A stretch of DNA of 64,000 nucleotides from Aestuariivirga sp. (GCA_031424315.1 JANPHF010000083.1:7137-71136), one strand, 5' to 3'; counted from the first letter of the stretch, positions 24,654-43,139 are shown. Notes: generated by a model not told the origin, from the sequence alone. Translations and numbers: made by a program.

Positions 24654-24704
24654 GCTTTTGGATCAGTCGCTTGCAAAATATATTCCTACTAAAGCAAAAT
24701 AACC

Positions 24705-24734: not shown

Positions 24735-24888
24735 TCGCCATACTCCACCATTGGGTCAAAGTTTCCCCACCGCCGCCAACAAGTCTTGCAAGCCCACGAA
24801 GACGACGTTGGGGCGAACGAATTTCGACCCTGTGGATCACCGGCCGCCAAGCCCTTGAAATCTCAGGCCCGAACGGCAATCTTGTGTT

Positions 24889-25083: not shown

Positions 25084-25087
25084 GCCG

Positions 25088-25294: not shown

Positions 25295-25366
25295 CGGGGT
25301 AAGTTAGCGATAGCTGGCATCAACCTCAAATTTTAGCCAGCTTTCTAAAAAAGTTGGAATTGCTCA

Positions 25367-25957: not shown

Positions 25958-26070
25958 GACTTACGATGTGCAGGTCAGCAGATGTATTAGGGGATTGGCC
26001 TAATTTAGCAATTCAAATTGGCTGAAACTGCCCCCTTCCCTCTTTTCTTTGACCCCGCCATAATCAGCGC

Positions 26071-29283: not shown

Positions 29284-29676
29284 TCAGCGTGCCAGCACAG
29301 CCGCCGGCATTGCCGCCACTGCTGCAAGCGTGGCCTTGTGCGAAGGGGCTTCCTTCTCCACCAGCATTTCCACCTTGCGCAAGTCGGCTTCTGCCTCTTT
29401 CATGCGATCAATCATGGCTTCGTGCTGGTCACGCAGCTCGCCGACAGTCTTGAGAATGTTGTCGCGGCGCACCCGCACGGATTTGGCCGCCATCGAATAG
29501 CTTACGCTGTTCGGATCCGAAACGCCGGTGCGCTGTTCCTCGAACTTCACATGGGCATCAAGGTCGTCATGCTTGCGCATAAGGTCCTGGATCATCATGT
29601 CCATGTCTGAAACTTGCCTGCGGCAATCTTCCACGCGGAAGCGGTTCAACCGCAAAAGGCTTTCTCTTGAACGCAT
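29284..29676 (-). CDS. FliJ-like coiled-coil protein
   Basis: 130 aa. MRSRESLLRLNRFRVEDCRRQV and the helical heptad character resemble the flagellar export chaperone FliJ family, often found next to ctrA in Hyphomicrobiales (recalled). Confidence 0.45.
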   Translation of the reverse strand: MRSRESLLRLNRFRVEDCRRQVSDMDMMIQDLMRKHDDLDAHVKFEEQRTGVSDPNSVSYSMAAKSVRVRRDNILKTVGELRDQHEAMIDRMKEAEADLRKVEMLVEKEAPSHKATLAAVAAMPAAVLAR

Positions 29677-29774
29677 CTTTACCTCACTCAACGCACACAC
29701 ACATCTAGTTTGGCCCGCCCCATTCCCCCTCGGTTCGCGCCACCTCGGTGCAAATCGTTAATTTATTTGCATCC

Positions 29775-30075
29775 GACTCTATTCACGATTCTCCGAATCA
29801 AATAGCTAAGGAGAGTCGATCATCAAGAGCCGATGATAAACAGACAGGTTTAAGGCCGGGTAAACCCCCAGGCCTTGGTGAGGAAGTTCCCAGTTAAGCG
29901 AGTCGCGGCAGATCAAGGCCCAATATCTTGTGGTTGTTTCAGGGCAGCCACTAGGGATTGTAGGTCTAGCGTTAAGATTCGAAGTTTTAGGCTTAGGTTT
30001 TGTTAACCTTTCTAAGCCTATCTTAAGGAACAGAGTTAAGGCTTCGTGTGCAGGGTTGTGCGCGGGGCGAGAGTC
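29775..30075. promoter_or_regulatory. ctrA upstream control region with clustered GANTC (CcrM) sites and a TTAA-N7-TAAA half-consensus CtrA box
   Basis: GANTC at 29775, 29787, 29795, 29813, 29900, 29976 and 30071. TTAAGGCCGGGTAAA at 29850-29864. Confidence 0.5.
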
Positions 30076-30117
30076 GAAATCCCCCATCCGGGGAAGTGGA
30101 TTTATAAGGGGAAAACC

Positions 30118-30837
30118 ATGCGGGTTTTGTTGATCGAGGACGATACAGCCACCGCCCAATCCATCGAGCTGATGCTGAAGTCTGAAGGCTTCAATGTCTA
30201 TACGACGGATCTCGGTGAAGAGGGCGTCGACCTCGGCAAGCTCTATGACTATGACATTATCCTTCTCGACCTCAACCTGCCCGACATGTCGGGCTATGAA
30301 GTGTTGAAAAGCCTGCGTGTTTCCAAAGTGGGCACGCCAATCCTTATTCTCTCCGGCCTCGCCGGCATCGAAGACAAGGTCAAGGGCCTGGGCTTCGGCG
30401 CCGATGACTATATGACCAAGCCTTTTCACAAGGATGAGCTCGTCGCACGCATCCACGCCGTTGTGCGCCGTTCCAAGGGCCACGCCCAATCCGTGATCCA
30501 CACTGGCGAATTGCTGGTGAACCTCGATACCAAGACGGTAGAAGTGGGCGGCCAGCGCGTGCACCTCACCGGCAAGGAATACCAAATGCTGGAGCTGCTC
30601 TCGCTTCGAAAGGGCACCACGCTCACCAAGGAAATGTTCCTCAACCACCTCTACGGCGGTATGGACGAGCCCGAACTCAAGATCATCGACGTGTTCATCT
30701 GCAAGCTTCGCAAGAAGCTGGCCAACGCCGCCGAAGGCAAGAATTTCATCGAAACTGTTTGGGGCCGTGGCTATGTGCTGCGTGAAGGTGCGGCACCCAT
30801 GAACGGCTCTGAAGAAGAAATGGCCCACGTGGCCTGA
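30118..30837 (+). CDS. ctrA: cell-cycle response regulator CtrA (OmpR family)
   Basis: [36 protein letters not shown]...[19 protein letters not shown]...FICKLRKKL is near-identical to the canonical CtrA sequence pattern. Confidence 0.95.
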
Positions 30838-30956
30838 TCACATCACGCTTCTGTCACAATCAGAAGCTATGGAATGCACCACAAGAGATCGCCCGATAGA
30901 ATTGCGGGTATAGGCAGAGGTTTGTAGGGTTTCCCTCCCCCTGCCCGAAGTTTCAA

Positions 30957-30990
30957 AAGCCCGGCCCATCGCAAGATGGCCGGGCTTTTT
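30957..30990 (+). terminator. rho-independent terminator after ctrA
   Basis: AGCCCGGCCCATC-gcaa-GATGGCCGGGCT followed by TTTTT. Confidence 0.8.
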
Positions 30991-31086
30991 GCATTGCGCG
31001 GAGTTGAAACTGGGGATTAGAGCAATTCTGGGTTGCCTTTCCGCTTCTTTTGTGATGAATGCTCCCTTCGCGACTGGGGAGTCAAA

Positions 31087-32292
31087 ATGCCATTCATCTA
31101 TTTTGCCTGCATTCTTGCGGCTGCAGTAATTCTTGTTTTTTCGACAAGCCAGTTCTGGCTGGCCTCAACCCTATTGCGGACAGGGCCTCGCCAAAAGCAA
31201 ACACCGACCTCTGCAACCGACGTCAAGGCTTGGCCAACCGTGTTGGTGCAGCTGCCCATTTACAACGAAAGTTCGGTTGTGGAACAGCTCTTGGAGGCGA
31301 TTTCAAAGCTGGACTATCCCCGAGAGAAGATTTCAGTTCAGCTCCTCGATGACTCAAACGATGAAACGACAGAAATAGCAGCCCACAAAATTGCACAAAT
31401 CATGCGCACCTCCAAATTCTCGATTGCGCATATTCGCAGAGATTCCAGACAGGGATTCAAGGCGGGAGCACTCCACTACGGTTTGGAACTCGATGCCAAC
31501 AAGAGCGAATTTGTCGCAATTTTCGATGCCGACTTTACTCCAAGAGCGGACTTCCTTCGCCAAACAATTCCGCACTTTCTTGATGCAGGAATTGGCATGG
31601 TGCAGACGCGATGGATCCATAAGAACGAAAATGAATCCATAATCACAAGTCTCATGGCTCTGGCGATCGATAACCACTTTGTTGTCGAGCACGGAGGCCG
31701 CCAAGCAGCCGGATGTTTCATTAACTTCAACGGAACGGCAGGTGTATGGCGGACAGCCGCAATTACTTCAGCTGGCGGTTGGGCAGATGACAGCCTGACC
31801 GAGGATTTGGATCTTTCAATGCGCTGCCAAATGGCCGGCTGGAGGTGTCTCTACCTCAGAGACATAGGAACTCCATCAGAGCTGCCTTCCACTCTGTCAA
31901 GTTTGCGCACACAACAATTCAGATGGACCAAGGGCGCAGCAGAAGCGGCATTGAAACTCGGTAGTCCATTGCTGGATTCGTCCGCAACCAAGACTGCAAA
32001 ACTGATAGGCATGCTGCAGCTTTGGGCGAGTGTAGTTTTCCCGGCCACCTTGCTTTTTGGAATAGCCGCATTGGGCTATCACTTCCTGGACACGACTGCG
32101 GGACTGCAAGTGTTCTTCATATCATCCATCGGACTTCTGTTGGCCACTTTTGCGATTACGTTTAGTTATGTGACGAGCCAATGGATACTCGGGAAGCGTG
32201 CATGGCCAGAAATTTTTATCAACATTTTGAAAACTCAAGCATTTACGTTATTCGCGCTCGGGTTCAGCATTCAAAATACGTGGGCCGTCTGA
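31087..32292 (+). CDS. processive family-2 glycosyltransferase (CslA/cellulose-synthase-like), C-terminally cut by an in-frame TGA
   Basis: Motifs LLDDSND, FDADF, TEDLDLS and QQFRWTKG, plus multiple TM helices. Lower-GC DNA. The stop at 32290-32292 is followed in the same frame by the next ORF. Confidence 0.8.
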   Translation: MPFIYFACILAAAVILVFSTSQFWLASTLLRTGPRQKQTPTSATDVKAWPTVLVQLPIYNESSVVEQLLEAISKLDYPREKISVQLLDDSNDETTEIAAHKIAQIMRTSKFSIAHIRRDSRQGFKAGALHYGLELDANKSEFVAIFDADFTPRADFLRQTIPHFLDAGIGMVQTRWIHKNENESIITSLMALAIDNHFVVEHGGRQAAGCFINFNGTAGVWRTAAITSAGGWADDSLTEDLDLSMRCQMAGWRCLYLRDIGTPSELPSTLSSLRTQQFRWTKGAAEAALKLGSPLLDSSATKTAKLIGMLQLWASVVFPATLLFGIAALGYHFLDTTAGLQVFFISSIGLLLATFAITFSYVTSQWILGKRAWPEIFINILKTQAFTLFALGFSIQNTWAV

Positions 32293-32322
32293 GAAGCATG
32301 CACGAGGCAAAAAACTGAATTT

Positions 32323-33309
32323 GTGCGAACCCCAAAGGGCGCGACCCTCAGGAAGGCCAAGAGCAAGTCACATGCATCGTTTTCAGACGTCCTCAAGAAA
32401 TTAAAGTTTCCCATTCTTGAAACAGCCGCGTCGGGGCTTTTCTCGGTCGCAGCGATCCAACAGATTGTTGAATGGCGCGACACGCGTTTTCCACTGTTTG
32501 GCATTCTCTTGTCCTATGCCATCGGTTTTGGAATGATGGTATTCCTGTCACTATCCGAAGGCTGGAAAGCCCGAGCCAAGGTGAGCGAAATTTCAGAAGT
32601 CTCACTCGATAGGGTGAAGGCGAAATTCGAAATCTCCAATCCCGAAGATTCAATTCAAGGTTATTTCGCAAAAGGTGTTTTTTACGAACCTCGTGAATTA
32701 CAATTGTTGGGTGACCAATTCACACGCGGGATATTTGTCGACGTTGGAGCGAACGTTGGCAATCCTAGCATTTACATGGCAAAATTGAATCCGTCCTGCA
32801 AAGTAATCGCATTTGAGCCTCACCCCCTCACATTCAGTCAATTGAAGCAAAACATTGCGATCAATCGCCTCGAGGACCAAATTGAAATTTTCAATATCGG
32901 ACTCGGCGCCAGTATCGGCGAATTTGATTTGCTTGAGCCCAACCAAAACAGCGGCGGCACAACAATGTCTGGGAAAATTCGAGGCGGTCACCAATCAACA
33001 CGCAGTGTCGGAAAGGCCCGAGTTGAGAGCGGTGACTGCGTCTTGGAAGGAAGAGAAGTCACACTCATCAAGATCGATGTTGAGGGATTTGAACTTCAGG
33101 TATTGAAAGGCTTGGAGCGCCTAATTGAAGCAAAAAGGCCGAAGCTGCTGATCGAGACCGATGAACTCAATGGGGATGAAATTGAGCGTTTTCTATCAAA
33201 ATTCGGATACAAGCAAGTTGATGAATTTCGTCAATACCGGGCGCTAGTCAATCGATTCTATGTTGCCTCCAACAATGCCAACGCCCAAGAACGCAAAACG
33301 ATGTGCTGA
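32323..33309 (+). CDS. FkbM family methyltransferase with 2-TM N-terminal region (same frame as the GT2 ORF)
   Basis: VDVGANVGN...AFEPHP...LIKIDVEGFELQVLKGL, the FkbM signature. The N-terminus starts RTPKG followed by two TM segments. Confidence 0.75.
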   Translation: MRTPKGATLRKAKSKSHASFSDVLKKLKFPILETAASGLFSVAAIQQIVEWRDTRFPLFGILLSYAIGFGMMVFLSLSEGWKARAKVSEISEVSLDRVKAKFEISNPEDSIQGYFAKGVFYEPRELQLLGDQFTRGIFVDVGANVGNPSIYMAKLNPSCKVIAFEPHPLTFSQLKQNIAINRLEDQIEIFNIGLGASIGEFDLLEPNQNSGGTTMSGKIRGGHQSTRSVGKARVESGDCVLEGREVTLIKIDVEGFELQVLKGLERLIEAKRPKLLIETDELNGDEIERFLSKFGYKQVDEFRQYRALVNRFYVASNNANAQERKTMC

Positions 33310-33312
33310 GCC

Positions 33313-34209
33313 ATGCAGCATTTTTCGGCAAATCCAGCAAGATTGTTCAAACAAATAGAGCATATCGCAAATCAGCTTCGCGCCGGCCAAACTGACAGGA
33401 ACATTCTGACAAGCAGTAACGGTATCGATTACGATTGTGACCCGTCATGGATACGTGATCTGCTACGAAAAAAGGCGGTCCATGATTCAGATTTTCAAAT
33501 ATTCGGGCGATTGCCCTCACAGGAAGGGATTGTGTTGGATATTGGCGCCAATTGGGGCTTCGGCGCCGCATCAATGATTTCTAGCGGTTGCCAAAATTCC
33601 ATTTTGTCGTTTGAAGTCTTGCCTCATCTTGCAATCTGCCTCTCAGCCCTGAAAGAACAGCGCAGTGGAAAATATGACTTCGTGACAACTGGGGTCGGCG
33701 GCTCGGTTGACCAAATAGAGTTCTACACACCTTTGTTGGGAAGACACGCCATTACTGCACTGACCACTGCAAAGTTGCCGAATTTCACTCCTGAAGAAGC
33801 TCGCGCTCTTGCAGACAATCTCGCGGACCATGCCCGCAGGTATATGTCTCTATGGGACAGTAAGAAACTGCGGGTACTTAGGACAGTTAGCCCTGTTCAG
33901 ACAGTCGACGCCATATTGGAGGGTTATTCGGGTGCGTTTCACGCAAAGAACGTCGCCGCTATTAAGATTGACGTTGAGGGCCTCGAGGATTCGGTTCTAA
34001 GGGGTGCGTCAGACACCGTGGAGCGAAATAGACCAATCCTCTTGATAGAAGGAGGTACTCGCAATCACGGTGTGGGCGAACTACTCAATCTGTGGGGCTA
34101 CCAAGGACTTCGCTGGGCAGGCTCCAAATTGGAAGCCTGCTCTGGGCTGACCACAGGCACAAATGGCACATTCTATCATCCCAAGGGCCACGTTCCTCGT
34201 TTCGAGTAA
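33313..34209 (+). CDS. FkbM family methyltransferase
   Basis: LDIGANWGFGA...AIKIDVEGLEDSVLRGA. 298 aa. Confidence 0.75.
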   Translation: MQHFSANPARLFKQIEHIANQLRAGQTDRNILTSSNGIDYDCDPSWIRDLLRKKAVHDSDFQIFGRLPSQEGIVLDIGANWGFGAASMISSGCQNSILSFEVLPHLAICLSALKEQRSGKYDFVTTGVGGSVDQIEFYTPLLGRHAITALTTAKLPNFTPEEARALADNLADHARRYMSLWDSKKLRVLRTVSPVQTVDAILEGYSGAFHAKNVAAIKIDVEGLEDSVLRGASDTVERNRPILLIEGGTRNHGVGELLNLWGYQGLRWAGSKLEACSGLTTGTNGTFYHPKGHVPRFE

Positions 34210-34275
34210 GTTTGACCTCATCATGGCAGCTTCAAGGCAGAGGTGTGACTTTGCGCCCACCAAACTGAGGCCCTG

Positions 34276-34318
34276 TTAACCATCCCTTAACTATCAAGTC
34301 GCGTTAACGACTCGTTAA
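34276..34318 (+). promoter_or_regulatory. two perfect CtrA boxes (TTAA-N7-TTAA) with an embedded GANTC
   Basis: TTAACCATCCCTTAA at 34276-34290 and TTAACGACTCGTTAA at 34304-34318 (GACTC at 34309-34313). They lie 17-59 nt upstream of ATG 34335. Confidence 0.65.
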
Positions 34319-34334
34319 GGATACACTCCCTCCC

Positions 34335-34994
34335 ATGGTGCGTGGGTTGGGTAAAGCGTTGGGTTTGGGACTGGTTTTGGCTGGTCTCGTGGTTGGGCAG
34401 GCAGCGGCGCAGGCGCCGGGCACGCATCCCATCAAGGGCAATTTCGATTTGCCAGGCTTCAATGTGGCTTCAGCCACGCCGACTGGCAAAACCCTGCCCC
34501 CCATTGGCTATGTCGAGTTCTGTGGCCGTGGCCAGGAAGAGTGCAAATTCTCTGCTGGCAAGGCTGAAGTTCTGGCCGTGACCACCGAGAACTGGGATCA
34601 AGTGCAGCAAGTCAACCGCCTGGTGAATACCAAGATCCGCCCCGCTTCCGACCAGGAGCTTTATGGCGTTCCCGATTACTGGACTTATCCCACTTCCGCT
34701 GGCGACTGCGAAGATTATGTGCTGCTGAAGAAGAAGTATCTCGTGGAACTAGGCTTCAATCCGGATCAAATGCTGATCACCGTGGTGCTGGACGAAAACC
34801 GCGAGGGCCACGCCATTCTTACCCTCGTGACGGCCAAGGGCGATTTCGTGCTCGACAACCGCCGCCAGGAAATCATGCGGTGGGACCAGACGGGCTATAT
34901 CTTCCTGAAGCGCCAATCTCAGGAACAGGCCACCAAGTGGGTGTCACTGCAGAAGTCTGCCCCGCAGGTTACGGTCAGCACCAAGGCGCATTGA
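34335..34994 (+). CDS. periplasmic transglutaminase-like cysteine protease (BTLCP, LapG-like)
   Basis: Signal peptide, then a Cys-His-Asp set: AGDCEDYVLLKK, EGHAILTL and FVLDNRR. Confidence 0.8.
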   Translation: MVRGLGKALGLGLVLAGLVVGQAAAQAPGTHPIKGNFDLPGFNVASATPTGKTLPPIGYVEFCGRGQEECKFSAGKAEVLAVTTENWDQVQQVNRLVNTKIRPASDQELYGVPDYWTYPTSAGDCEDYVLLKKKYLVELGFNPDQMLITVVLDENREGHAILTLVTAKGDFVLDNRRQEIMRWDQTGYIFLKRQSQEQATKWVSLQKSAPQVTVSTKAH

Positions 34995-35045
34995 GCAAAC
35001 AAGAAACGTCGTCCAGGCGAAAGCTATGGATTCGCCGGGCCTTGC

Positions 35046-38000
35046 TTACACAAACAGGAAATCATCCGCTGCCAGCTGATTGAGATGCAGGCCGCTGAGC
35101 ATGATTGTGTCGGCCCCGGCATCCACACTGATCAACACGCCAGCTGCCGTCTCCACCGCATGGAGGAGCACGTCAGAATAGGCATGCATATCGGTGCCCA
35201 ACAGGCGCACCACATCTGTCTTGCCTGTGCCAGCCCAGAAATCAGTGATCGTGTCATGGCCAAAGCCCGCACTGAATTGGAACTGATCCGCCCCTGCCCC
35301 ACCAGTGAGAGTGTCATCTCCCGTGTTGCCGAGGATGGTGTCGTTTCCGCCACCGCCATTGATCACATCATTGCCAGCGCCGCCATCGAGGCGGTTGGCA
35401 AGATCATTACCAGTGATCTTGTCGTTCCAAGCACTGCCCAATACGTTTTCGATGTTGATATAGCTATCGCCGGTAGCATCAGTCACACCATTCACGGCAA
35501 TATAGCTCTGGTCGACATAGGCCGAGCCATCGCCATTGAGCAGGGCAGCATCACCTGACACCGCAGCTTTGGGATCAACGCCATTCTGGCTGGCATCGGC
35601 ATTGGTGGTGCCACCCGTGACAAGGCTCAAGGTAACGCCCGTGTGCGAAGCCGCATAGCTCGCAGTATCAATGCCATCGCCGCCATCAAGCACGTCAGCG
35701 CCAGCACCACCGATCAGCGTATCAGCGCCGCCGCCGCCATGCAGCACGTCATTGCCAGCGCCGCCGTTCAGAATATTGGCGCCAGCGTCACCCGTGAGGG
35801 TATCGTCAAACTTGGAACCGACGAGATTTTCAATGTTGATGATGGTGTCGCGCGAGGCTGAACCATATTGGCCAATGCCCGTTTCCAGATTGACGACAAC
35901 CTTGTCCCAGCTATCGGCATAGGACAACGTGTCAACGCCCGCACCGCCATCAACATAATCGTAGCCGCCGGCGGTGTAGATCATGTCATTGCCGCCACCG
36001 CCTTCGATATGGTCTGCGCCCTGGCCACCATAGATCACATTGGCATTGTCATCACCGATCAGGGTGTCATCACCCTTGCCGCCGCGGATGTTTTCAATGC
36101 TGACGTAGGTGTCGCCCTCGGCAATATCGCCATGGCCCTGACCTGTGGCCAGATTCACGTTCACATTGCCGTTGGCGTTGCGATAGTCGATCCAGTCCTT
36201 GCCCACGCCGCCGTCGAAATGGTCGCCGCCACCTGAGCCATAGAAATGGTCATTGCCCAGGCCACCAATCAAATTGTTGGCGCCCGCATCGCCCATCAGC
36301 GTGTCAGCAAAAGCCGTGCCGATCACATTCTCGACGCCAGTGAGTTTATCTCCCTCAGCATCGCCGCCCAGGCCCGTGCCCAGCTTGAGATTGACATTCA
36401 CACCTACCGTTGAAGCGGAGTAATCTGCGGTGTCATTGCCGTCTCCGCCGATCAATGTGTCTGCGCCTGCGCCACCGATCAGCGTATCATTGCCAGCACC
36501 GCCGTTCAGCACATTGTTGCCCGCATTGCCTGTCAACTTGTCATCAAAGGCAGAACCTGTGACATTCTCAATCGAGATCAGCTTGTCACCCTCGGCCGTG
36601 CCACTAAGGCCCATGCCGAGTGCCAGATTCACGTTTACTGCGGCGTTCGACGCAGAATAGTCGGCTGTATCAACGCCATCGCCGCCGTCCATGGTATCGC
36701 CACCACCAGAGCCCACAAGCAGGTCGTCGCCCTTGCCCGCATGCAACACGTTGGCATTGGCATCGCCCGTCAACACGTCGTTGAAGTCAGAGCCAGTGAT
36801 ATTCTCAATCGAGATCAGCTTGTCGCCTTGGGCAAAGCCGCCCGAACCCGTGCCTAGCGCGAGATTGACAGCAACCGCTGCATTGGAATTCGAATAGTCG
36901 GCCGTATCTGTGCCGTCGCCACCATCCATGGTGTCGCCACCACCGGAGCCAACAAGCGTGTCATCGCCCTTGCCAGCATGCAACACATTGGCATTGGCAT
37001 CGCCGGTCAGCGCGTCATTGAAGTCAGAACCCGTGACATTTTCGATGCTCGAAAGCGTATCACCTTCTGCATCGCCGCCTGCGCCAGCGCCCGTGGCGAG
37101 GTTGACTTTTACGCCAGCCGATGAGGCAGAATAGTCTGCCGTGTCAATGCCGGAGCCGCCGATCAACGTGTCCGCGCCGGTTCCGCCGATCAAGAGATCA
37201 TCGCCTGCGCCGCCATCCAGCAAATCTTTGCCAGCGCCGCCGATCAGTGTGTCATTGCCATTTTCACCGTAAAGCTTGTCGTCACCGCCGCGGCCATCGA
37301 GCAGATCATCGCCATCGCGGCCATAGAATACGTTGACGCCATCCGTGCCCCAGAACTTGTCGGCCACCGCGCTGCCAATCAGATTTTCAATGCTGACGAA
37401 CTGATCCTGCCAATTGTTCGTGCCCGTGGCGAGATCGATGTATTGGGCATATTGGTTGAGCACGGGAACGTCGGCGCTGAAAGTGTCAATGCCATCGCCG
37501 CCATCGTAGTGATCGCCGGAATAGGACCATTCCACCAGGAAGGTGTCACTGCCGGCGCCACCAAATTCAAAGTCATTGCCTTCGCCGCCAGTGATGATGT
37601 CACTGCCATCGCCACCATAGATATAATCTGTGCCAGCGCCGCCATCGATCACGTCATTGCCAGCGCCGCCCACGATCACATTGTTGCCAGCATCCCCGGT
37701 CAGCGTGTCATCAAAGGCAGAGCCCGTGACATTTTCAATTGAGATCAGTTTGTCGCCTTGCGCATAGCCGCCCGCGCCCGTACCCGTCGCCAGATTGACA
37801 ATGACGGCCGCCGTTGAATTGGAATAGTCGGCGGTATCGTTGCCCTCGCCACCATCCATCGTGTCGCCGCCGCCGGAGCCAACCAGCGTGTCATCACCCT
37901 TGCCGCCGCTCAACACATTGGCGCCAGCATCGCCCGTCAACACATCGTTGAACGCTGAGCCCGTGACGTTTTCGATGGCTACGAGTTTGTCACCCTCAGC

Positions 38001-39434
38001 ATCGCCGCCCTTGCCCGTGCCTGTCGCGAGATTGACGGTGACGCCTGCGTTAGATGCGGAATAGTCTGCTGTGTCGGTGCCATTGCCACCATCGAGATAG
38101 TCAGCGCCAGCGCCGCCGATCAGCGTGTCGTTGCCATCTTCGCCATAAAGCGTGTCATTGCCTGTGCCGCCGTCCAGCACATCGTTGCCGCCGCCGGTCC
38201 AGATCGTGTCGTTGCCTTCACCGCCATAAACAATGTCGACGGTGTTGGCATAGTAGTAGTTATCGAACACGTCATTGCCAGCACCAAGGTAGTAGGTCAT
38301 CGACGTGGTCGATGAACCATAGACCTGATCGTTGAAAGCAGTGCCTGTGAATATCTCGAAGTTGGCATAGGTGTCGCCTGTGGCATCACCCGTGATGCCG
38401 CCAGCCGCATGATTGGCATATTGAAAGCCGATGCCATATTGATCCGTGGCCGAAAAAGCCACAACAACACCTACCGTGGCATTGGCATAGCTCACCGTGT
38501 CGGTGCCAATACCGCCATCCATCTGGTCAGCGCCCGCGCCGCCGATGATCAAGTCATTGCCACCGCTGCCATTGATGACATTGTTACCAGCATCGCCCGA
38601 GAGCGTATCGTCAAAACCCGAACCAGTGAGATTTTCAATGCCAGAGAGCGTGTCACCTTCCGCGTCGCCGCCTTTGCCCGTGCCAGTGAGCAGGCTGACA
38701 TTCACCGCAGCCAACGAGGCAGAGTAATCCGCCGTGTCAACGCCGTCGCCGCCAATCAGCTTGTCGGCACCGAAACCACCAATCAGCGTGTCATTGCCTG
38801 TGCCGCCATCCAGCGTGTCGTTGCCAGCATCACCGTAGAGCACGTCATTGCCACCACCGCCGTAAATCGTATCGTTGCCATTGCCGCCATGAATCGTGTC
38901 ATTACCATCTGCTGCGGCGTTGGCGACGAGGCTCGCACCCGGTTCAAATGTGAGCTTCTTGTCAATGTTCTGCGTGTCGAAAAGCTTGCCGTCCATGTAG
39001 AGCTTTTCAGTACCCAGATTGATACTGGAGACAATCGCATCCGAATGGGGAGGAATGATAACGGTGATCGACTGACCGCCATTGTTGCCATTGCCTTGTG
39101 AGGCAGACTGCATGACGACCGTGATGGGCAGGTCTGAATTGTTGGCAATGTCCCAATATGAAAGGCTGCCCGCAGTGCCAAGCGAAGTGAGGAATGGATT
39201 TGAAGAGCCGCTGTTGGTGATGCGCGGCACAATCACATAGCCAGCGGCATTGGCCTGATTAGCGAAAGTGACGCTGCCATCGCCATAAATAACGTCATTG
39301 CCATCGCCACCACTGATGACATCATCGCCGCCTAGGCCATACAGCAGATCATCTTTAGCGCTGCCTGTGATCGTATCAGCACTGCTCGTGCCATAAACAA
39401 TTCCACCAGCAATAGGCGCATTCAAAACAGACAT
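35046..39434 (-). CDS. giant RTX (hemolysin-type calcium-binding repeat) secreted protein, probable T1SS substrate
   Basis: 1462 aa with dozens of GGxGxDxUx nonapeptides. ~73-aa super-repeats (TADYSxS..V.VNL..G.G.GG.A.GD.L..IENV.GS.F.D.LTGD). Acidic C-terminal signal ending DDFLFV. Confidence 0.9.
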   Translation of the reverse strand: MSVLNAPIAGGIVYGTSSADTITGSAKDDLLYGLGGDDVISGGDGNDVIYGDGSVTFANQANAAGYVIVPRITNSGSSNPFLTSLGTAGSLSYWDIANNSDLPITVVMQSASQGNGNNGGQSITVIIPPHSDAIVSSINLGTEKLYMDGKLFDTQNIDKKLTFEPGASLVANAAADGNDTIHGGNGNDTIYGGGGNDVLYGDAGNDTLDGGTGNDTLIGGFGADKLIGGDGVDTADYSASLAAVNVSLLTGTGKGGDAEGDTLSGIENLTGSGFDDTLSGDAGNNVINGSGGNDLIIGGAGADQMDGGIGTDTVSYANATVGVVVAFSATDQYGIGFQYANHAAGGITGDATGDTYANFEIFTGTAFNDQVYGSSTTSMTYYLGAGNDVFDNYYYANTVDIVYGGEGNDTIWTGGGNDVLDGGTGNDTLYGEDGNDTLIGGAGADYLDGGNGTDTADYSASNAGVTVNLATGTGKGGDAEGDKLVAIENVTGSAFNDVLTGDAGANVLSGGKGDDTLVGSGGGDTMDGGEGNDTADYSNSTAAVIVNLATGTGAGGYAQGDKLISIENVTGSAFDDTLTGDAGNNVIVGGAGNDVIDGGAGTDYIYGGDGSDIITGGEGNDFEFGGAGSDTFLVEWSYSGDHYDGGDGIDTFSADVPVLNQYAQYIDLATGTNNWQDQFVSIENLIGSAVADKFWGTDGVNVFYGRDGDDLLDGRGGDDKLYGENGNDTLIGGAGKDLLDGGAGDDLLIGGTGADTLIGGSGIDTADYSASSAGVKVNLATGAGAGGDAEGDTLSSIENVTGSDFNDALTGDANANVLHAGKGDDTLVGSGGGDTMDGGDGTDTADYSNSNAAVAVNLALGTGSGGFAQGDKLISIENITGSDFNDVLTGDANANVLHAGKGDDLLVGSGGGDTMDGGDGVDTADYSASNAAVNVNLALGMGLSGTAEGDKLISIENVTGSAFDDKLTGNAGNNVLNGGAGNDTLIGGAGADTLIGGDGNDTADYSASTVGVNVNLKLGTGLGGDAEGDKLTGVENVIGTAFADTLMGDAGANNLIGGLGNDHFYGSGGGDHFDGGVGKDWIDYRNANGNVNVNLATGQGHGDIAEGDTYVSIENIRGGKGDDTLIGDDNANVIYGGQGADHIEGGGGNDMIYTAGGYDYVDGGAGVDTLSYADSWDKVVVNLETGIGQYGSASRDTIINIENLVGSKFDDTLTGDAGANILNGGAGNDVLHGGGGADTLIGGAGADVLDGGDGIDTASYAASHTGVTLSLVTGGTTNADASQNGVDPKAAVSGDAALLNGDGSAYVDQSYIAVNGVTDATGDSYINIENVLGSAWNDKITGNDLANRLDGGAGNDVINGGGGNDTILGNTGDDTLTGGAGADQFQFSAGFGHDTITDFWAGTGKTDVVRLLGTDMHAYSDVLLHAVETAAGVLISVDAGADTIMLSGLHLNQLAADDFLFV

Positions 39435-39572
39435 TTAGGTAAAATCTCCCCGATCGTTGGGAGGTGCTTAATGGCCAAATGTCCTAAGAGTGCTTTCCGG
39501 GATTGGTTAAATTTTTCGGAGCACCACCTGTTGCAACCTTGGGGTAAACAAGGGTTGAATCGGATTGGTTAA

Positions 39573-40229
39573 TCAGGCGGCAGCTTGTGCTTCCAACGGC
39601 AAGGCTTTCACTTCAACGGTGTCCTCGCCATCCATTTGCATCGTGAGTTTAAGTGCTGAGGCTTCGGCCAAAATGCGGGCATAGTAAGGTTGCACCAAAC
39701 GCGCATCGAGAGTGGTGAGATCGGCCGTGCCAGCCAAGGCAGAAGCCAGGCCCTCATTGATCTTGGCGCGCTCGCCCTTGGCCTTCACGCTGAAGGTGCG
39801 GCCATCGACCGCCACCGTCACCACACCGCCGCGCGGGATTCCGGCCAGCGCCATAAGCAGCATGTTGAGCAGCAGCTTCACTTCCTGCTTGGGGCGATTT
39901 TCACGCGGTGCCGCCCAATCCAGTTTCACCTTCTCTTCACCCACGAATGCGCGTGCCACCTCACCCGCCTCGCCCATATCAATGAGCGCACCAGCCGAGC
40001 CCGAAGCGCCAAAGGCAATGCGGCAGAATTTCAATTTTGCAGTGGCGGTCTTGGCCGAGGAGCGCACCATGTCCAACGCCGTCTTCTTCATTTCGGCATC
40101 GGTGTCTTCATCGTCCATTAACTCAAGCCCATTGGCGATGGCGCCAACCGGAGAGATCACATCATGGCACACCCGCGAGCATAGCAATGCGGCAAGATCC
40201 AGATCAGAAAGGCGGGCGAGTGTGGTCAT
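39573..40229 (-). CDS. chpT: histidine phosphotransferase ChpT
   Basis: ATG 40229 gives MTTLARLSDLDLAALLCSRVCHDVISPVGAIANGLELM, the ChpT His-containing helix. 218 aa. Confidence 0.85.
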   Translation of the reverse strand: MTTLARLSDLDLAALLCSRVCHDVISPVGAIANGLELMDDEDTDAEMKKTALDMVRSSAKTATAKLKFCRIAFGASGSAGALIDMGEAGEVARAFVGEEKVKLDWAAPRENRPKQEVKLLLNMLLMALAGIPRGGVVTVAVDGRTFSVKAKGERAKINEGLASALAGTADLTTLDARLVQPYYARILAEASALKLTMQMDGEDTVEVKALPLEAQAAA

Positions 40230-40373: not shown

Positions 40374-41165
40374 ATGACCCAGCCTTCGCCTGAACTTCTG
40401 AACTTTGCCAGCATCGCCCAAGAAGCGGGCCGCGCCATCGTGCGCATCTATGGCCAAGCCTTCACCGCCACCACCAAAGCGGATGCATCGCCCGTAACCG
40501 AGGCCGATGTGGCCGCCGAGACATTGATCCTGCAGGCACTGGCCAAGCATTTCCCGCAAGTCCCGGTTGTTGCCGAAGAGCAAGCCGCAGCGGGCCAAAT
40601 CCCCCACATCGGTGCGGGCTTCTTTTTGGTGGACCCGCTGGACGGCACCAAGGAATTCATCTCGCGCAATGGCGAATTCACAGTCAATATCGGCCGCATT
40701 GAAAATGGTGTGCCGGTTTGTGGTGTGGTCTATGCCCCGGCACTGGACGAAATGTTCCTGGGCCGGACGGGTGAAGGCGCATTCAAAGCCATCATGAAGC
40801 CAAATGGCGCATTTGATGCCAGCGCATTCACCCCAATCACCTGCCGAGTTCAACCCCCCGAGGGCGCCACCATCCTCGCCAGCCGTTCACACCGCGACGC
40901 TGAAACCGAAGGCTTCATTACCACTGTGAAACCTGCAAACCTGATCTCCGCGGGTTCATCACTGAAATTCTGCCGCCTGGCGGAAGGCAAGGCCGATCTC
41001 TACCCCCGCTTTGGCCGCACCATGGAATGGGATACGGCCGCTGGCCATGCTGTTCTGTTGGCCGCAGGCGGCAGCATGGCCAAGGCCGATGGTTCAGCCT
41101 TTACCTATGGCAAAGTGAGCGAGAAATTCGCCAACCCTTCCTTCATCGCACGGGGGCGCGGCTAG
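40374..41165 (+). CDS. cysQ: 3'(2'),5'-bisphosphate nucleotidase / inositol monophosphatase family
   Basis: Motifs EEQ, DPLDGTKEF and WDTAAGHAV. Confidence 0.8.
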   Translation: MTQPSPELLNFASIAQEAGRAIVRIYGQAFTATTKADASPVTEADVAAETLILQALAKHFPQVPVVAEEQAAAGQIPHIGAGFFLVDPLDGTKEFISRNGEFTVNIGRIENGVPVCGVVYAPALDEMFLGRTGEGAFKAIMKPNGAFDASAFTPITCRVQPPEGATILASRSHRDAETEGFITTVKPANLISAGSSLKFCRLAEGKADLYPRFGRTMEWDTAAGHAVLLAAGGSMAKADGSAFTYGKVSEKFANPSFIARGRG

Positions 41166-41266: not shown

Positions 41267-41393
41267 GGCAGAAAATTTCCGCTTCATTAACCAAACTGAA
41301 ATCCCAGCCGTGGCAAATCGCAAGCTGGACGGATTTTTGCCCAGCTTCAGCCGCCTTTGAGGGTTAACAGCCGGGACATTGAGTGAGGGTTCC

Positions 41394-41996
41394 ATGTTAA
41401 AGACAGTTTCAAAAGTTGCATTTGCCGCGTTGCTGGCCCTGCCCTTGGCTTCGGCTTTGCCCGCCAGCGCCAAGCAACTCACCACCGGCAGCGTTTCGCG
41501 AGCCGAATCCAACAGCACCTATTCCGCCGAGGAAATTGTGGCCACGGGCCACCAGTTCTTTGGCAAGACCACCCGCGGCCTGGCTGAAGCCATTGAATAT
41601 GTCTTCCGCGAACAGGGTGAGCCTTCGGCCTATATCATTGGCGAAGAGGGCTCCGGCGCCATCATCGGCGGCCTGCGCTATGGCGAAGGCACGATTTATT
41701 ACAAGAACGGCGCCAAGAAACACATTTTCTGGCAAGGCCCTTCCATTGGCTGGGATTTCGGTGGCAACGGCTCGCGCACCATGACGCTGGTTTATGGCTC
41801 ACAATCGCCTGAAGACCTTTACACCCGCTTTGGTGGTGTTGAAGGCTCTGCCTATCTCATAGGCGGCATGGGTGTGAACTTCGAGCGCAAGGACCAGATT
41901 ACCTTGGCCCCGATCCGCACTGGCCTAGGTGCGCGCCTTGGTGCCAACGTCGGCTATCTGAAATATTCACCCCGCGCCACCTGGAACCCCTTCTAG
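41394..41996 (+). CDS. DUF1134 periplasmic protein (EipA-like)
   Basis: Signal peptide MLKTVSKVAFAALLALPLASALPASA. Conserved GEEGSGAIIGGLRYGEG...GPSIGWDFGG...GVEGSAYLIGGMGVN pattern. Confidence 0.75.
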   Translation: MLKTVSKVAFAALLALPLASALPASAKQLTTGSVSRAESNSTYSAEEIVATGHQFFGKTTRGLAEAIEYVFREQGEPSAYIIGEEGSGAIIGGLRYGEGTIYYKNGAKKHIFWQGPSIGWDFGGNGSRTMTLVYGSQSPEDLYTRFGGVEGSAYLIGGMGVNFERKDQITLAPIRTGLGARLGANVGYLKYSPRATWNPF

Positions 41997-42096: not shown

Positions 42097-42194
42097 AGTT
42101 TCAGGCGCGCTAGCGTTCCCGCCTGATTTGACCTAAAAGCCTCAACTCTTGTCGCCCTCACGGGCGGCGATTCATTTGAGAGTTGGGTGTTTCT

Positions 42195-43139
42195 ATGTCT
42201 CAAACAGAGACGCTGTTGGTTCTGGCGCTGGGTTCGGCGCTGACCTTGCTGATCTTTCTGTTGTTTGGCCGCGTGTTCTGGAACATGGCCATGGCTGCTG
42301 CCGCCCGACGCCGCGCCAAGCAGGTGCCGGTTGAGATGATGAACCTCCAGGCAGACCGCGATCGCTTGCGCGCCGAACATGCCTTAATGGCCCGCAAGCT
42401 GGAACTGAGGCTGGACGACATCAACATCCGCATGACCGAGCAGATGGCCGAGGTGTCGCGCCACCGCAACCGGGTGCAGGGCCTGATGCAGGAAATTGAA
42501 AGCCGCGACGATGCCTTGAAACACCGCCAGCGCGAAATCGACGCCCTCACCACCCAGCTTGAAATCAAGGATGCGGAATATGATGCCGCCCAGCGCACCA
42601 TTGAAGGCTTGAATGACGAGAAAGCCATTCACGGCCAAGAAATGGCAAAGTTGCAAGGTGCGTTGTACAAACTTGGCGCGGTGCTGCGCAACAAAGACAC
42701 CCTTGTGGGTCAGTTGAATGATGAATTGCGGTCCCTTCTGGCCTTGCCAACGAGCGAAGCGCCAGCGGACCTGGCCCCGACAGTCGAAGACCGGTTGCGC
42801 CGCCGCGTGGCCGAATTGACCTCAATTTCTGCAGACATTTCGCGTGGCAGTGCAGGCGATGACACTGCCCAGCCCGCGCCCGACGAAACCACTCCTGAAA
42901 TTGTGACGGAAGCCACGATGGCCCCTCGTGGTCGTGAGGAACACATTCAGGAAAAGCTGGCAGAAGCCGAGCGCCAGACAGAGGAAATGCAAAGGGAACT
43001 GCGCGCGCTGGATGAATTGCTGGCTCAAACCGGAAGCGCTGAATCCCCCGCAGAGCCAGCCAAAAAACAGGGTGCCATGGCTAATGTCGTATCGCTCGCC
43101 CAGCGCATCCGCGCGCTGCAAAAGGGCATGGATGACTGA
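42195..43139 (+). CDS. hypothetical N-terminally anchored coiled-coil protein
   Basis: One N-terminal TM (LLVLALGSALTLLIFLLFG), then a long heptad-rich helical region and an acidic tail. Confidence 0.5.
   Translation: MSQTETLLVLALGSALTLLIFLLFGRVFWNMAMAAAARRRAKQVPVEMMNLQADRDRLRAEHALMARKLELRLDDINIRMTEQMAEVSRHRNRVQGLMQEIESRDDALKHRQREIDALTTQLEIKDAEYDAAQRTIEGLNDEKAIHGQEMAKLQGALYKLGAVLRNKDTLVGQLNDELRSLLALPTSEAPADLAPTVEDRLRRRVAELTSISADISRGSAGDDTAQPAPDETTPEIVTEATMAPRGREEHIQEKLAEAERQTEEMQRELRALDELLAQTGSAESPAEPAKKQGAMANVVSLAQRIRALQKGMDD

What the first reader, a model, noticed from the sequence alone, without database searches (positions are those of the whole stretch)
30991..39572. ~8.5-kb accessory block wedged between ctrA and chpT
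Seen: ctrA with its terminator ends at 30990 and the chpT stop is at 39573. Between them lie a visibly lower-GC GT2 plus two FkbM genes, a BTLCP protease and a 4.4-kb RTX gene. cysQ and an EipA-like DUF1134 gene follow chpT. Recalled knowledge, to be verified: in Brucella, ctrA, chpT and eipA are neighbours. Inference: an adhesin/exopolysaccharide-type cargo has been inserted into the core of the cell-cycle phosphorelay locus. No integrase, transposase or flanking direct repeat is visible.
Basis: partly seen in the sequence, partly recalled or inferred. Interest (0 to 1): 0.7.

Follow-up and report, generated by a model that had tools for sequence, protein, structure and literature searches.

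The report
Three-layer accessory mosaic between ctrA and chpT
The 8.7 kb between the cell-cycle genes ctrA and chpT was not inserted in one event: it holds an old RTX exoprotein gene, a CtrA-box-controlled HvyA-like periplasmic protease gene and a recent, already broken sugar-polymer cassette, all in a gap that relatives fill with very different genes.

Summary
In detail: gene content, borders, low G+C and the lack of mobility genes are as described.

In 36 Aestuariivirga-level relatives the convergent ctrA|chpT junction ranges from 48 bp to 7.3 kb. It carries unrelated cargo such as pili, a restriction-modification system, a sigma/anti-sigma pair and porins. The four neighbouring junctions hardly vary. 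The gap is therefore a real hotspot, and adjacency is the deeper ancestral state.

The window's block has three layers.
1. **RTX gene (35046-39434).** It has native composition. Orthologues lie directly downstream of chpT in three subclades, and one relative keeps a deletion scar, so it is old.
2. **BTLCP gene (34335-34994).** It has native composition and is preceded by two perfect CtrA boxes. Box 1 is conserved in all 8 ctrA-linked orthologues. This matches HvyA-type, CtrA-timed periplasmic proteases and does not match LapG.
3. **Low-GC cassette (30993-34269).** It carries a BcsA-like GT2 synthase whose reading frame is broken by an in-frame TGA and runs on into an FkbM domain, plus a second FkbM gene. 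A sister strain 96% identical in nucleotide sequence lacks it.

No repeats, tRNA or recombinase flank the block, so exchange by flanking homology is the likeliest mechanism. This is an ordinary kind of feature, mapped in detail. Interest is moderate to low.

The parts
30118..30837 (+). ctrA, the left core flank
   Evidence: Pfam Response_reg + Trans_reg_C. It is 87-98% identical across the loci where ctrA was found.
30955..30992 (+). ctrA intrinsic terminator (hairpin plus U-run), and the left junction of the low-GC cassette
   Evidence: Fold of -26.7 kcal/mol, z = -3.4. The same hairpin opens sister-strain contig L087. Equivalent hairpins follow ctrA in L002, L007, L084 and L011/L013.
30993..34269 (+). 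Strain-variable low-GC cassette (3277 bp). In sister strain L087 an unrelated 72-nt spacer takes its place.
   Evidence: L087 aligns with the window at 96.2% identity and no gaps over 34269-40029 only. Its first 37 nt are the ctrA terminator. GC3 is 0.51-0.54 against about 0.67 for the window.
31087..32292 (+). Core of a processive BcsA-like GT2 synthase (401 aa, QQFRW motif), ending at a premature in-frame stop
   Evidence: Pfam Glyco_tranf_2_3 / Glyco_trans_2_3. PDB BcsA at 1.4e-23. Homologues are about 495-520 aa.
32290..32292 (+). In-frame TGA that splits the synthase reading frame
   Evidence: Homologues read AV[T/L/I/G]EA...KTEFVRTPK through this position. Logan assembly L088 is 100% identical and includes the stop.
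32323..33309 (+). Same frame as the GT2 core. Residues 1 to about 95 are the C-terminal tail of the GT2 family (KTEFVRTPK plus transmembrane helices), fused to an FkbM methyltransferase domain.
   Evidence: Residues 1-79 match the C-terminus of the full-length L002 GT2, and similar stretches match L081 and L082. Pfam Methyltransf_21 covers residues 140-297. The closest relatives of the FkbM domain are stand-alone proteins of about 260 aa.
33313..34209 (+). Second FkbM-family methyltransferase
   Evidence: Pfam and TIGR01444 hits. The L002 orthologue is 45% identical.
34276..34290 (.). CtrA box 1, TTAACCATCCCTTAA (a full TTAA-N7-TTAA that includes the TTAACCAT half-site)
   Evidence: Only 3 perfect boxes occur in 64 kb, against 0.17 expected. 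The consensus TTAACCATnnnTTAAC is conserved upstream of 7 of the 8 ctrA-linked BTLCP genes, with a variant in L004.
34304..34318 (.). CtrA box 2, TTAACGACTCGTTAA. It contains a GANTC site at 34309 and ends 16 nt before the BTLCP ATG.
   Evidence: A second perfect box is also present in L087, L002, L007, L089 and L090.
34335..34994 (+). Periplasmic BTLCP (Peptidase_C93), an HvyA-like paralogue with a signal peptide and the triad C125/H159/D174
   Evidence: Pfam E = 4e-62. The triad spacing of 34/15 equals that of HvyA C192/H226/D241 (PMC4241560). Only 3 amino-acid changes accompany 18 nucleotide changes against L087.
35046..39434 (-). RTX calcium-binding exoprotein (1462 aa) in tandem with chpT, with a C-terminal ...DDFLFV tail
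   Evidence: 26 HemolysinCabind stretches. Orthologues occupy the same position in L001, L004, L005, L011, L012, L022, L025, L029 and L087; remnants survive in L038 and L089. 42 amino-acid changes accompany 167 nucleotide changes against L087.
39493..39516 (-). Motif conserved upstream of every RTX orthologue (TAAAATTT-N11-CTAAG type). The regulator is unknown.
   Evidence: Alignment of 8 upstream regions, plus L005 read by eye. The pattern scan recovered it in 7 RTX upstream regions, and the other hits looked like one conserved coding stretch.
39573..40229 (-). chpT, the right core flank
   Evidence: Pfam HPTransfase. It was the query that retrieved 80 related loci.
40374..41165 (+). cysQ-like inositol monophosphatase family gene (conserved context)
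   Evidence: The junction with chpT is invariant at 93-240 bp in 46 loci.
41379..41996 (+). eipA (DUF1134) (conserved context)
   Evidence: Pfam EipA E = 3.7e-70.

Best explanation
ctrA (+) and chpT (-) are convergent, so the gap between their 3' ends disrupts no promoter. In Aestuariivirgaceae this gap has become a hotspot where accessory genes are gained, swapped and deleted.

The window's 8.7 kb is the sum of three separate histories.

**(a) RTX gene.** This T1SS-type calcium-binding exoprotein gene became fixed directly downstream of chpT, on the same strand, early in the genus. It has its own conserved upstream motif and no strong terminator separates it from chpT. It has since been inherited vertically and lost many times by deletion.

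**(b) BTLCP gene.** A second paralogue of the family's periplasmic BTLCP settled directly downstream of ctrA in one subclade. Its promoter is built around one or two canonical CtrA boxes. The protease is therefore most likely made only when CtrA~P is high, as with Caulobacter HvyA, which removes capsule from G1 cells. It most likely acts on an envelope or surface-polymer target.

**(c) Low-GC cassette.** A 3.3-kb cassette lies exactly between the ctrA terminator and CtrA box 1. It encodes a BcsA-like processive GT2 synthase plus two FkbM methyltransferases, which would make a methylated beta-glycan. A strain 96% identical lacks it. The synthase frame is already cut by a TGA, so the cassette is probably decaying or works only as a split enzyme.

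Exchange most likely occurs by homologous recombination in the highly conserved flanks, not through a mobile element.

**Shown:** the anatomy, the composition, the presence/absence pattern, conservation of the boxes, and purifying selection on BTLCP and RTX.

**Inferred:** CtrA binding, the timing of expression, the protease target, secretion of the RTX protein and the recombination mechanism.
For: **Hotspot.**
- The ChpT|CtrA gap exceeds 600 bp in 18 of 36 Aestuariivirga-level loci and ranges from 48 to 7339 bp. The four adjacent junctions exceed 600 bp in 0-4 loci.
- Close relatives differ. L011 carries RTX while L016, L054, L014 and L009 are empty. L035 is empty while L017 has 5.8 kb. L010 is empty while L020 has 5.3 kb.
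- Cargo families are unrelated: usher/SCPU pili, MmeI restriction-modification, sigma/NrsF, OprD, fumarase, a two-component system, Fpg, cytochrome c peroxidase and polysaccharide genes.

**RTX is old.**
- The non-repeat N- and C-terminal regions are 38-69% identical at the same position and on the same strand in three subclades.
- L038 retains only '...DDFLFV*' in a 419-bp gap.
- GC3 is native.

**BTLCP.**
- The boxes lie at 34276 and 34304, with 3 perfect boxes in 64 kb against 0.17 expected.
- All 8 ctrA-linked orthologues have one or two perfect boxes in the upstream spacer, the proximal one within about 60 bp of the start.
- Across 55 loci (960 kb) only 10 perfect boxes exist, and 5 of them are these.
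- Control of HvyA-type BTLCPs by CtrA is established experimentally in Caulobacter. CtrA sites or binding at the promoters of the S. meliloti and S. fredii homologues are reported (PMC4241560).
- The catalytic triad has the same spacing as in HvyA.
- One assembly (GCA_965191505.1) holds both the ctrA-linked copy and the mgtE-linked copy, so they are paralogues.

**Cassette.**
- GC3 and codon bias are atypical.
- It is absent from L087, with junctions at the terminator and 6 bp before box 1.
- The in-frame TGA is documented.
- The nearest GT2 homologues sit in unrelated contexts.

**No mobile-element signature**.
Against: - No experiment supports CtrA binding or any phenotype in this organism.
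- The second box ends 16 nt before the ATG, so its effect could be repressive rather than activating.
- The direction of the cassette polymorphism is unresolved: gain in this strain, or loss in L087. L002 has a homologous cassette (57% and 45% amino-acid identity) at the same site, which could mean the cassette is old.
- L087 attaches to ctrA only through a 37-nt terminator match at the end of a metagenome contig.
- The species tree is neighbour-joining on 2-3 proteins taken from MAGs.
- No T1SS was found, but only the 10 largest unassigned ORFs of the window were tested.
- Recombination through the flanks is inferred from missing signatures, not from detected recombination tracts.
Confidence: 0.72

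Rival explanations
1. Lap-like module. The BTLCP acts as a LapG-type protease that cleaves its convergent neighbour, the RTX protein, to release it from the cell surface. Here the timing would come from CtrA rather than from c-di-GMP/LapD.
For: - BTLCP and an RTX-repeat protein are adjacent here and in L004, L087 and L089.
- LapG structures are the only PDB relatives of the BTLCP (4u65 at 6e-7, 4fgo).
- Both genes are under purifying selection.
Against: - The NCBIfam LapG equivalog scores 43 bits against a cut-off of 320.
- The RTX protein starts directly with RTX repeats. It has no LapA-type N-terminal retention module and no conserved (T/P)AAG site.
- RTX predates the BTLCP and occurs without it in L012, L022, L011 and L029.
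- The BTLCP occurs without RTX in L002, L007 and L084.
- No LapD-like gene was found. The GGDEF-EAL protein at 48661-50073 has no room for an N-terminal sensor domain before its GGDEF domain, which starts at residue 28.
Confidence: 0.12
2. One reading: one genomic island carrying adhesin and EPS genes was inserted as a unit into the ctrA-chpT locus, for example by a mobile element whose recombinase has since been lost.
For: - Adjacency of ctrA and chpT is the state in the outgroups.
- The block is the largest occupant of the gap among loci where both flanks are present.
Against: - The three parts differ in composition.
- They have different phylogenetic distributions.
- They show different strain-level presence.
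- There are no repeats, tRNA or recombinase here, nor in the cargo ORFs tested in relatives.
Confidence: 0.04
3. The GT2/FkbM cassette is ancestral to the window/L002 lineage and was recently deleted in the L087 strain. On this view it is a decaying old resident with persistently low GC, not a recent gain in the window strain.
For: - L002 has a homologous, syntenic cassette between the ctrA terminator and box 1.
- The window copy carries a nonsense codon, which is consistent with relaxed selection before loss.
Against: - The 72-nt spacer in L087 has no similarity to either end of the cassette, so this was not a simple internal deletion.
- Other members of the subclade lack the cassette: L004 (cytochrome c peroxidase in its place), L007, L084, L089 and L090.
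- The cassette proteins are more diverged between the window and L002 (57% and 45%) than BTLCP (66-72%) or ChpT (84%).
Confidence: 0.3
4. The whole arrangement is ancestral and the 'empty' relatives are all secondary deletions, so nothing was ever inserted.
For: A deletion scar in L038 shows that at least some empty sites are derived.
Against: - Loci at 52-67% ChpT identity (L046, L048, L060, L078, L057, L061, L070) have gaps of 51-196 bp with no remnants.
- BTLCP is confined to one subclade and the cassette to two genomes.
Confidence: 0.04

Closest known systems
HvyA (CCNA_00166) of Caulobacter crescentus and its functional homologues SMc00998 (S. meliloti) and NGR_c12490 (S. fredii): CtrA-controlled periplasmic BTLCPs that block capsulation in G1 cells (PMC4241560)
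   Same: - Peptidase_C93 domain with a Sec signal peptide and no membrane anchor.
- Cys-His-Asp triad with identical 34/15 spacing.
- Canonical CtrA boxes in the promoter.
- In this strain, polysaccharide-synthesis genes lie next to it, as hvyA lies inside the CPS locus.
   Different: - It is 219 aa, against 272 aa for HvyA.
- It sits between ctrA and chpT rather than in a capsule export locus.
- It is one of two paralogues in the lineage.
- Relatives carry it without any adjacent polysaccharide genes.
- Its function and any MucR/SciP control are untested.
LapG-LapA-LapD adhesin release system (Pseudomonas fluorescens; Legionella LapG structures 4u65 and 4fgo)
   Same: A BTLCP-family periplasmic cysteine protease encoded next to a large protein with RTX repeats and a C-terminal T1SS-type tail.
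   Different: - It scores far below the LapG equivalog threshold.
- There is no LapD.
- The RTX protein has no retention module and no conserved di-alanine site.
- The two genes are inherited independently in relatives.
Brucella abortus eipA-chpT-ctrA locus (bab1_1612-1614; bioRxiv 10.1101/442541)
   Same: The same core genes in the same relative orientation.
   Different: Here cysQ lies between chpT and eipA, and 8.7 kb of accessory DNA separates chpT from ctrA.
Chromosomal hotspots of gene turnover flanked by conserved core genes and lacking mobile-element genes (a general concept from comparative genomics; cited from my own knowledge, not checked here)
   Same: One junction is hypervariable in a rigid syntenic frame, the cargo is diverse and mostly envelope-related, and no integrase or att sites are present.
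   Different: The flanks are the two essential genes of the CtrA phosphorelay. One long-term occupant, the BTLCP, is itself a probable CtrA target.
BcsA-type processive GT2 synthases (PDB 4hg6, 5ej1) and the widespread family of synthases of about 500 aa annotated as 'cellulose synthase/PNAG synthase-like'
   Same: The GT2 core with a QxxRW motif and flanking transmembrane helices.
   Different: - There is no PilZ domain and no BcsB partner.
- The frame is interrupted at codon 402.
- The family's C-terminal tail is fused to an FkbM methyltransferase domain. That fusion was not seen with this GT2 family: among the 150 best relatives of the FkbM ORF, the two of the roughly 775-aa fusion proteins that were compared with the GT2 core showed no similarity.

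Membership tests
HvyA-type (CtrA-controlled) BTLCP | Peptidase_C93/BTLCP domain with a Cys-His-Asp triad | tested here: met
   Pfam PF06035 at 209 bits. C125/H159/D174 lie in the GDCEDY / GHAIL / VLDN motifs, with the same spacing as HvyA.
HvyA-type (CtrA-controlled) BTLCP | Sec signal peptide and periplasmic location | tested here: inconclusive
   The N-terminus MVRGLGKALGLGLVLAGLVVGQAAAQA looks like a signal peptide by eye. No predictor was run and no localisation data exist.
HvyA-type (CtrA-controlled) BTLCP | CtrA binding site in the promoter | tested here: met
   Two perfect TTAA-N7-TTAA boxes lie upstream of the gene, and box 1 includes TTAACCAT. They are conserved in 8 orthologous loci. 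This is sequence evidence only; binding was not tested.
HvyA-type (CtrA-controlled) BTLCP | G1-restricted expression and inhibition of capsulation | not testable with these tools
   This needs synchronised cultures and mutants, or complementation of Caulobacter delta-hvyA.
LapG/LapA/LapD system | The protease is a LapG orthologue | tested here: not met
   NCBIfam NF045674 scores 43 bits against a cut-off of 320.
LapG/LapA/LapD system | The substrate has an N-terminal retention module with a conserved di-alanine cleavage site | tested here: not met
   Alignment of 9 RTX N-termini shows RTX repeats from residue 20 onwards. The 'AAG' occurs only in the window and is not conserved.
LapG/LapA/LapD system | LapD-type c-di-GMP receptor encoded nearby | tested here: not met
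   None lies in the interval. The only GGDEF-EAL protein seen (48661-50073) has its GGDEF domain starting at residue 28.
Mobile genomic island | Integrase, transposase or relaxase gene | tested here: not met
   All five cargo ORFs have other domain assignments. None was found among 30 cargo ORFs of relatives.
Mobile genomic island | Flanking direct repeats or a tRNA/tmRNA target | tested here: not met
   The junctions defined against L087 show no duplication.
Mobile genomic island | Atypical composition over the whole block | tested here: not met
   Only 30993-34269 is atypical.
RTX / T1SS substrate | GGxGxD nonapeptide repeats | tested here: met
   26 HemolysinCabind stretches, E = 3.9e-136.
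RTX / T1SS substrate | Cognate ABC / MFP / OMF exporter | tested here: inconclusive
   None was found among the 10 largest unassigned ORFs of the window. The rest of the genome was not available.
Processive GT2 synthase (BcsA-like) | GT2 fold with D, D, D and QxxRW motifs and a membrane channel | tested here: inconclusive
   The core and QQFRW are present. However, the frame stops at codon 402, before the family's conserved KTEFVRTPK tail and last transmembrane helices.

The most novel reading that the evidence does not exclude
The ctrA-linked BTLCP paralogue would be a cell-cycle-gated surface-remodelling switch. On this reading CtrA~P turns on a periplasmic protease or transglutaminase encoded right beside ctrA. 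That enzyme then processes the neighbouring RTX exoprotein, or the product of whichever polysaccharide cassette occupies the slot. Newborn swarmer-type cells would thereby shed or lose a surface layer. This would be a LapD-independent, transcriptionally timed analogue of the Lap system, and the hotspot would supply interchangeable substrates.
Probability: 0.12. Interest if true: 0.6.

Novelty: new member of a known kind. Interest (0 to 1): 0.35.

Why it matters
- The 3'-3' junction of the essential ctrA/chpT pair is the preferred landing and turnover site for accessory envelope genes in a little-studied family of freshwater Hyphomicrobiales.
- CtrA-controlled, HvyA-type BTLCPs extend to this family as a dedicated paralogue placed next to their regulator.
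- For annotation, the block should not be read as one 'island', the RTX protein should not be called an adhesin, and the GT2 synthase should be flagged as interrupted.
- For cell-cycle biology, the locus offers a compact natural reporter for CtrA activity in Aestuariivirga: two canonical boxes driving a small secreted enzyme.

Tried and rejected
- **att-like repeats and tRNA targets.** None found.
- **Rfam scan of 29.0-42.5 kb at E <= 0.1.** No match.
- **Sigma-70 and terminator consensus scans.** No enrichment over shuffles. The scan missed the ctrA terminator because its loop exceeds 8 nt.
- **BTLCP/RTX spacer hairpin (34995-35045).** Not better than shuffles, so it is not called a terminator.
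- **chpT-RTX spacer.** No significant structure.
- **LapA-type cleavage site.** The 'NAAG' at RTX residues 62-65 is not conserved.
- **Homologue search with the RTX non-repeat N-domain (residues 56-178).** No hits.
- **Single-sequence AlphaFold of that domain.** Mean pLDDT was 41.7, which is unusable, so no fold search was run.
- **Natural GT2::FkbM fusions.** The two roughly 775-aa FkbM fusion proteins compared (P0262 and P0350) have no similarity to this GT2 core.
- **Context look-up of the A. litoralis GT2 homologue.** Not on record.
- **L087 72-nt spacer.** It matches neither the cassette ends nor the spacers of relatives, so the direction of the polymorphism could not be decided.
- **RTX upstream motif.** Read against sigma-28, ECF and CtrA-box architectures from memory, the spacing and the -10 element do not fit. 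It is left unexplained.

Full report
**Observation.**
- ctrA lies at 30118-30837 (+), followed by a strong intrinsic terminator at 30955-30992 (-26.7 kcal/mol, z = -3.4).
- A GT2 gene and two FkbM-domain ORFs follow.
- A BTLCP/Peptidase_C93 gene lies at 34335-34994 (+).
- A 1462-aa RTX gene lies at 35046-39434 (-).
- chpT lies at 39573-40229 (-), followed by a cysQ-like gene and eipA.
- G+C drops to 46-51% only between 31.0 and 34.2 kb.
- GC3 is 0.51-0.54 for the three cassette ORFs. It is 0.70 for BTLCP and 0.63 for RTX, inside the 0.60-0.74 range of the rest of the window.
- No tRNA, flanking repeat or recombinase is present.
- The recalled Brucella synteny eipA-chpT-ctrA is documented in bioRxiv 10.1101/442541.

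**Who it is, and what relatives have.** A scan of one genome per species with ChpT returned 80 loci. Those with the highest ChpT identity are almost all Aestuariivirga / Aestuariivirgaceae MAGs of the Hyphomicrobiales, and the best match is 92% identical.

I mapped the window's proteins onto these loci and measured each junction.
- The order dn-eipA-cysQ-chpT ... ctrA-fliJ-like is rigid.
- At Aestuariivirga level the four neighbouring junctions exceed 600 bp in 0-4 of 36-46 loci.
- The chpT|ctrA junction exceeds 600 bp in 18 of 36 loci and ranges from 48 to 7339 bp. The window has 8735 bp.
- Seven loci at 52-67% ChpT identity have gaps of 51-196 bp, so adjacency is the deep ancestral state.
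- Very close relatives can differ. L011 carries RTX while L016, L054, L014 and L009 are empty; L035 differs from L017; L010 differs from L020.

The cargo is heterogeneous:
- chaperone-usher/SCPU pili;
- an MmeI restriction-modification enzyme with a DUF3800 protein;
- sigma factor/NrsF with DoxX and an amidohydrolase;
- a two-component system;
- OprD with fumarase;
- Fpg/Nei;
- TetR with an epimerase;
- a polysaccharide deacetylase;
- AsnB with glycosyltransferases and a methyltransferase;
- cytochrome c peroxidase.

No recombinase was found among these. The gap is therefore a genuine turnover hotspot without mobile-element signatures. Because ctrA and chpT converge, DNA placed between their stop codons interrupts no promoter. 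This last point is an inference.

**Layer 1, the RTX gene.**
- RTX genes occupy the same place in L001, L004, L005, L011, L012, L022, L025, L029 and L087: immediately downstream of chpT on the same strand.
- Their non-repeat N-terminal 175 residues and C-terminal 90 residues are orthologous (38-69% identity), and the identity falls in step with ChpT identity.
- L038 has a 419-bp gap that still encodes the last 63 residues, ending in ...DDFLFV*, just before the shared terminator. L089 keeps a 294-aa remnant. Both are deletion scars.
- Against the 96%-identical strain L087, the gene shows 42 amino-acid changes for 167 nucleotide changes.
- The RTX gene is therefore an old, vertically inherited, repeatedly lost resident under purifying selection, not part of a recent insertion.
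- All orthologues share an upstream motif of the type TAAAATTT-N11-CTAAG (window 39493-39516, minus strand). The pattern scan recovered it in 7 RTX upstream regions, and its other hits looked like one conserved coding stretch. I could not assign it to a regulator.
- No significant hairpin separates chpT from the RTX gene, so read-through from chpT is possible.
- Only RTX repeats were recognised. 'Adhesin' is unproven.

**Layer 2, the BTLCP gene.**
- Two perfect CtrA boxes (TTAA-N7-TTAA) lie at 34276-34290 (TTAACCATCCCTTAA) and 34304-34318, in the 125-bp spacer before the gene. The whole 64 kb holds only three such boxes, against 0.17 expected.
- Every ctrA-linked BTLCP orthologue found has box 1, with consensus TTAACCATnnnTTAAC in seven and the variant TTAACTAAGAATTAAC in L004. 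These are the window, L087, L002, L004, L007, L084, L089 and L090. Six of them also have a second perfect box, and the N7 spacers differ.
- Across 55 loci (960 kb) there are only 10 perfect boxes, and five of them are these.
- The protein has a signal-peptide-like N-terminus and the triad C125/H159/D174. The 34/15 spacing matches HvyA C192/H226/D241.
- Ardissone et al. (PMC4241560) showed that HvyA is a periplasmic BTLCP that is activated by CtrA, repressed by MucR and restricted to G1, and that it prevents capsulation in Caulobacter. They also report a CtrA site or CtrA binding at the promoters of the S. meliloti and S. fredii homologues.
- The NCBIfam LapG equivalog scores only 43 bits against a cut-off of 320.
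- In other Aestuariivirga genomes a 61-72% identical BTLCP sits at a different, conserved locus (mgtE - tRNA | BTLCP | hexapeptide transferase). There it has only a conserved TTAACCAT half-site.
- Assembly GCA_965191505.1 has both copies. The ctrA-linked gene is thus a paralogue, so far seen only in the window's subclade (ChpT 79-84%).
- Against L087 it shows 3 amino-acid changes for 18 nucleotide changes.

**Layer 3, the low-GC cassette.**
- The GT2 is a BcsA-like processive synthase core with a QQFRW motif.
- Its thousands of homologues are about 495-520 aa, whereas this ORF is 401 aa.
- The GT2 ORF and the 'first FkbM' ORF are in the same frame, separated by a single TGA at 32290-32292. Homologues read straight through it (AV[T/L/I/G]EA...KTEFVRTPK plus two transmembrane helices).
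- The first 95 or so residues of the 'FkbM' ORF are that missing synthase tail.
- The tail then runs without a stop into an FkbM domain whose closest relatives are stand-alone proteins of about 260 aa. Two of the roughly 775-aa FkbM fusion proteins in that list were compared with the GT2 core and showed no similarity.
- A Logan assembly of SRR20217181 reproduces the stop with 100% identity. It may derive from the same sample.
- A JGI metagenome contig (L087) is 96.2% identical to the window, without gaps, from 34269 to 40029. Upstream of that point it has 72 unrelated nucleotides and then the ctrA terminator hairpin.
- A same-species-level strain therefore lacks the cassette. Its limits are 30993 (just after the terminator U-run) and 34269 (6 bp before box 1). 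There is no target duplication.
- L002 carries a homologous cassette at the same site, with a full-length GT2 at 57% identity and one FkbM at 45%.
- L004 has a cytochrome c peroxidase there instead, L084 an unknown 224-aa ORF, and L007, L089 and L090 nothing.
- The nearest GT2 homologues (51-61% identity) are in unrelated contexts.
- The cassette is therefore a strain-variable allele of a sub-slot between the ctrA terminator and the BTLCP promoter. Whether this strain gained it or L087 lost it cannot be decided.

**How it most likely works.**
- Shown: the anatomy, the composition, the presence/absence pattern, the conservation of the boxes and the selection on BTLCP and RTX.
- Inferred: CtrA~P binds the boxes and times the synthesis of a periplasmic BTLCP that acts on an envelope or surface-polymer target, by analogy with HvyA.
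- Inferred: the RTX protein is exported by a T1SS encoded elsewhere. None was found among the ten largest unassigned ORFs of the window.
- Inferred: the cassette would make a methylated beta-glycan if the split synthase is still active, and it may be decaying.
- Inferred: cargo is exchanged by homologous recombination in the conserved flanks. CtrA is 92-98% identical across the Aestuariivirga-level loci.

**Rivals.**
- A Lap-like protease/substrate pair is the most interesting alternative, but it fails three membership tests and the two genes are inherited independently.
- A single mobile island is contradicted by the subsets seen in relatives.
- A wholly ancestral arrangement is contradicted by the outgroups.

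**Verdict.** This is a new member of known kinds: a core-flanked turnover hotspot and an HvyA-type CtrA-regulon BTLCP. The anatomy is tidy and well resolved. Interest is moderate to low.

Noticed in passing
window 63045-63059: The third perfect CtrA-type box of the window (TTAAAGCAGGGTTAA) lies about 75 bp upstream of a YebC/PmpR-family regulator gene at 63134-63829.
   Followed up: no
window 29700-30120: The ctrA upstream region holds seven GANTC (CcrM-type) sites in 420 bp and two one-mismatch CtrA boxes at 29850 and 30012. This fits autoregulated, methylation-sensitive ctrA promoters.
   Followed up: partly
window 39493-39516 (minus strand): A motif of the type TAAAATTT-N11-CTAAG is conserved upstream of all RTX orthologues examined. 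The pattern scan recovered it in 7 RTX upstream regions, and its other hits looked like one conserved coding stretch. The regulator or sigma factor is unknown.
   Followed up: partly
window 24600-26000: A second low-GC islet (44-51% GC) holds two ORFs without Pfam hits: 24613-24921 (-) and 25367-25957 (+), the latter with GC 0.446 and GC3 0.515.
   Followed up: partly
L002 8282; L012 580; L084 11771: Three relatives have a perfect CtrA box just upstream of the coiled-coil gene that follows eipA (the homologue of window 42183-43139). The window itself has none there.
   Followed up: no
window 29284-29700 (-): A small ORF divergent from ctrA is conserved next to ctrA in most of the loci where ctrA was found. 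It has only a weak FliJ-like NCBIfam hit (21.7 bits, below the cut-off) and no Pfam hit.
   Followed up: partly
L083, L085, L086 about 6520-7000: The mgtE-linked BTLCP paralogue of other Aestuariivirga genomes appears, by eye, to be preceded by a tRNA-like stretch (not confirmed with a tRNA scan) and by a conserved ATGGTTAA, the reverse complement of the CtrA half-site TTAACCAT, roughly 110-240 bp upstream of the called start.
   Followed up: partly
L084 9460-10790: In this relative a BrnT/BrnA toxin-antitoxin pair and a LysM protein are inserted between cysQ and eipA. This is a rare break of the otherwise rigid synteny.
   Followed up: no
L064, L068, L075, L077, L079 (about 10.7-13.6 kb): In more distant Hyphomicrobiales the gene directly downstream of chpT is a protein of about 810-960 aa with a receiver domain similar to that of CtrA, possibly a hybrid histidine kinase.
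   Followed up: no
L081 706-4838: A 51%-identical GT2 homologue lies next to a polysaccharide pyruvyl transferase and a CcrM-like N6_N4_Mtase + RAMA methyltransferase. This is another polysaccharide gene sitting beside a cell-cycle gene.
   Followed up: no
window 48661-50073: A GGDEF-EAL protein (470 aa) without an N-terminal sensor or transmembrane region. It is not LapD-like.
   Followed up: partly
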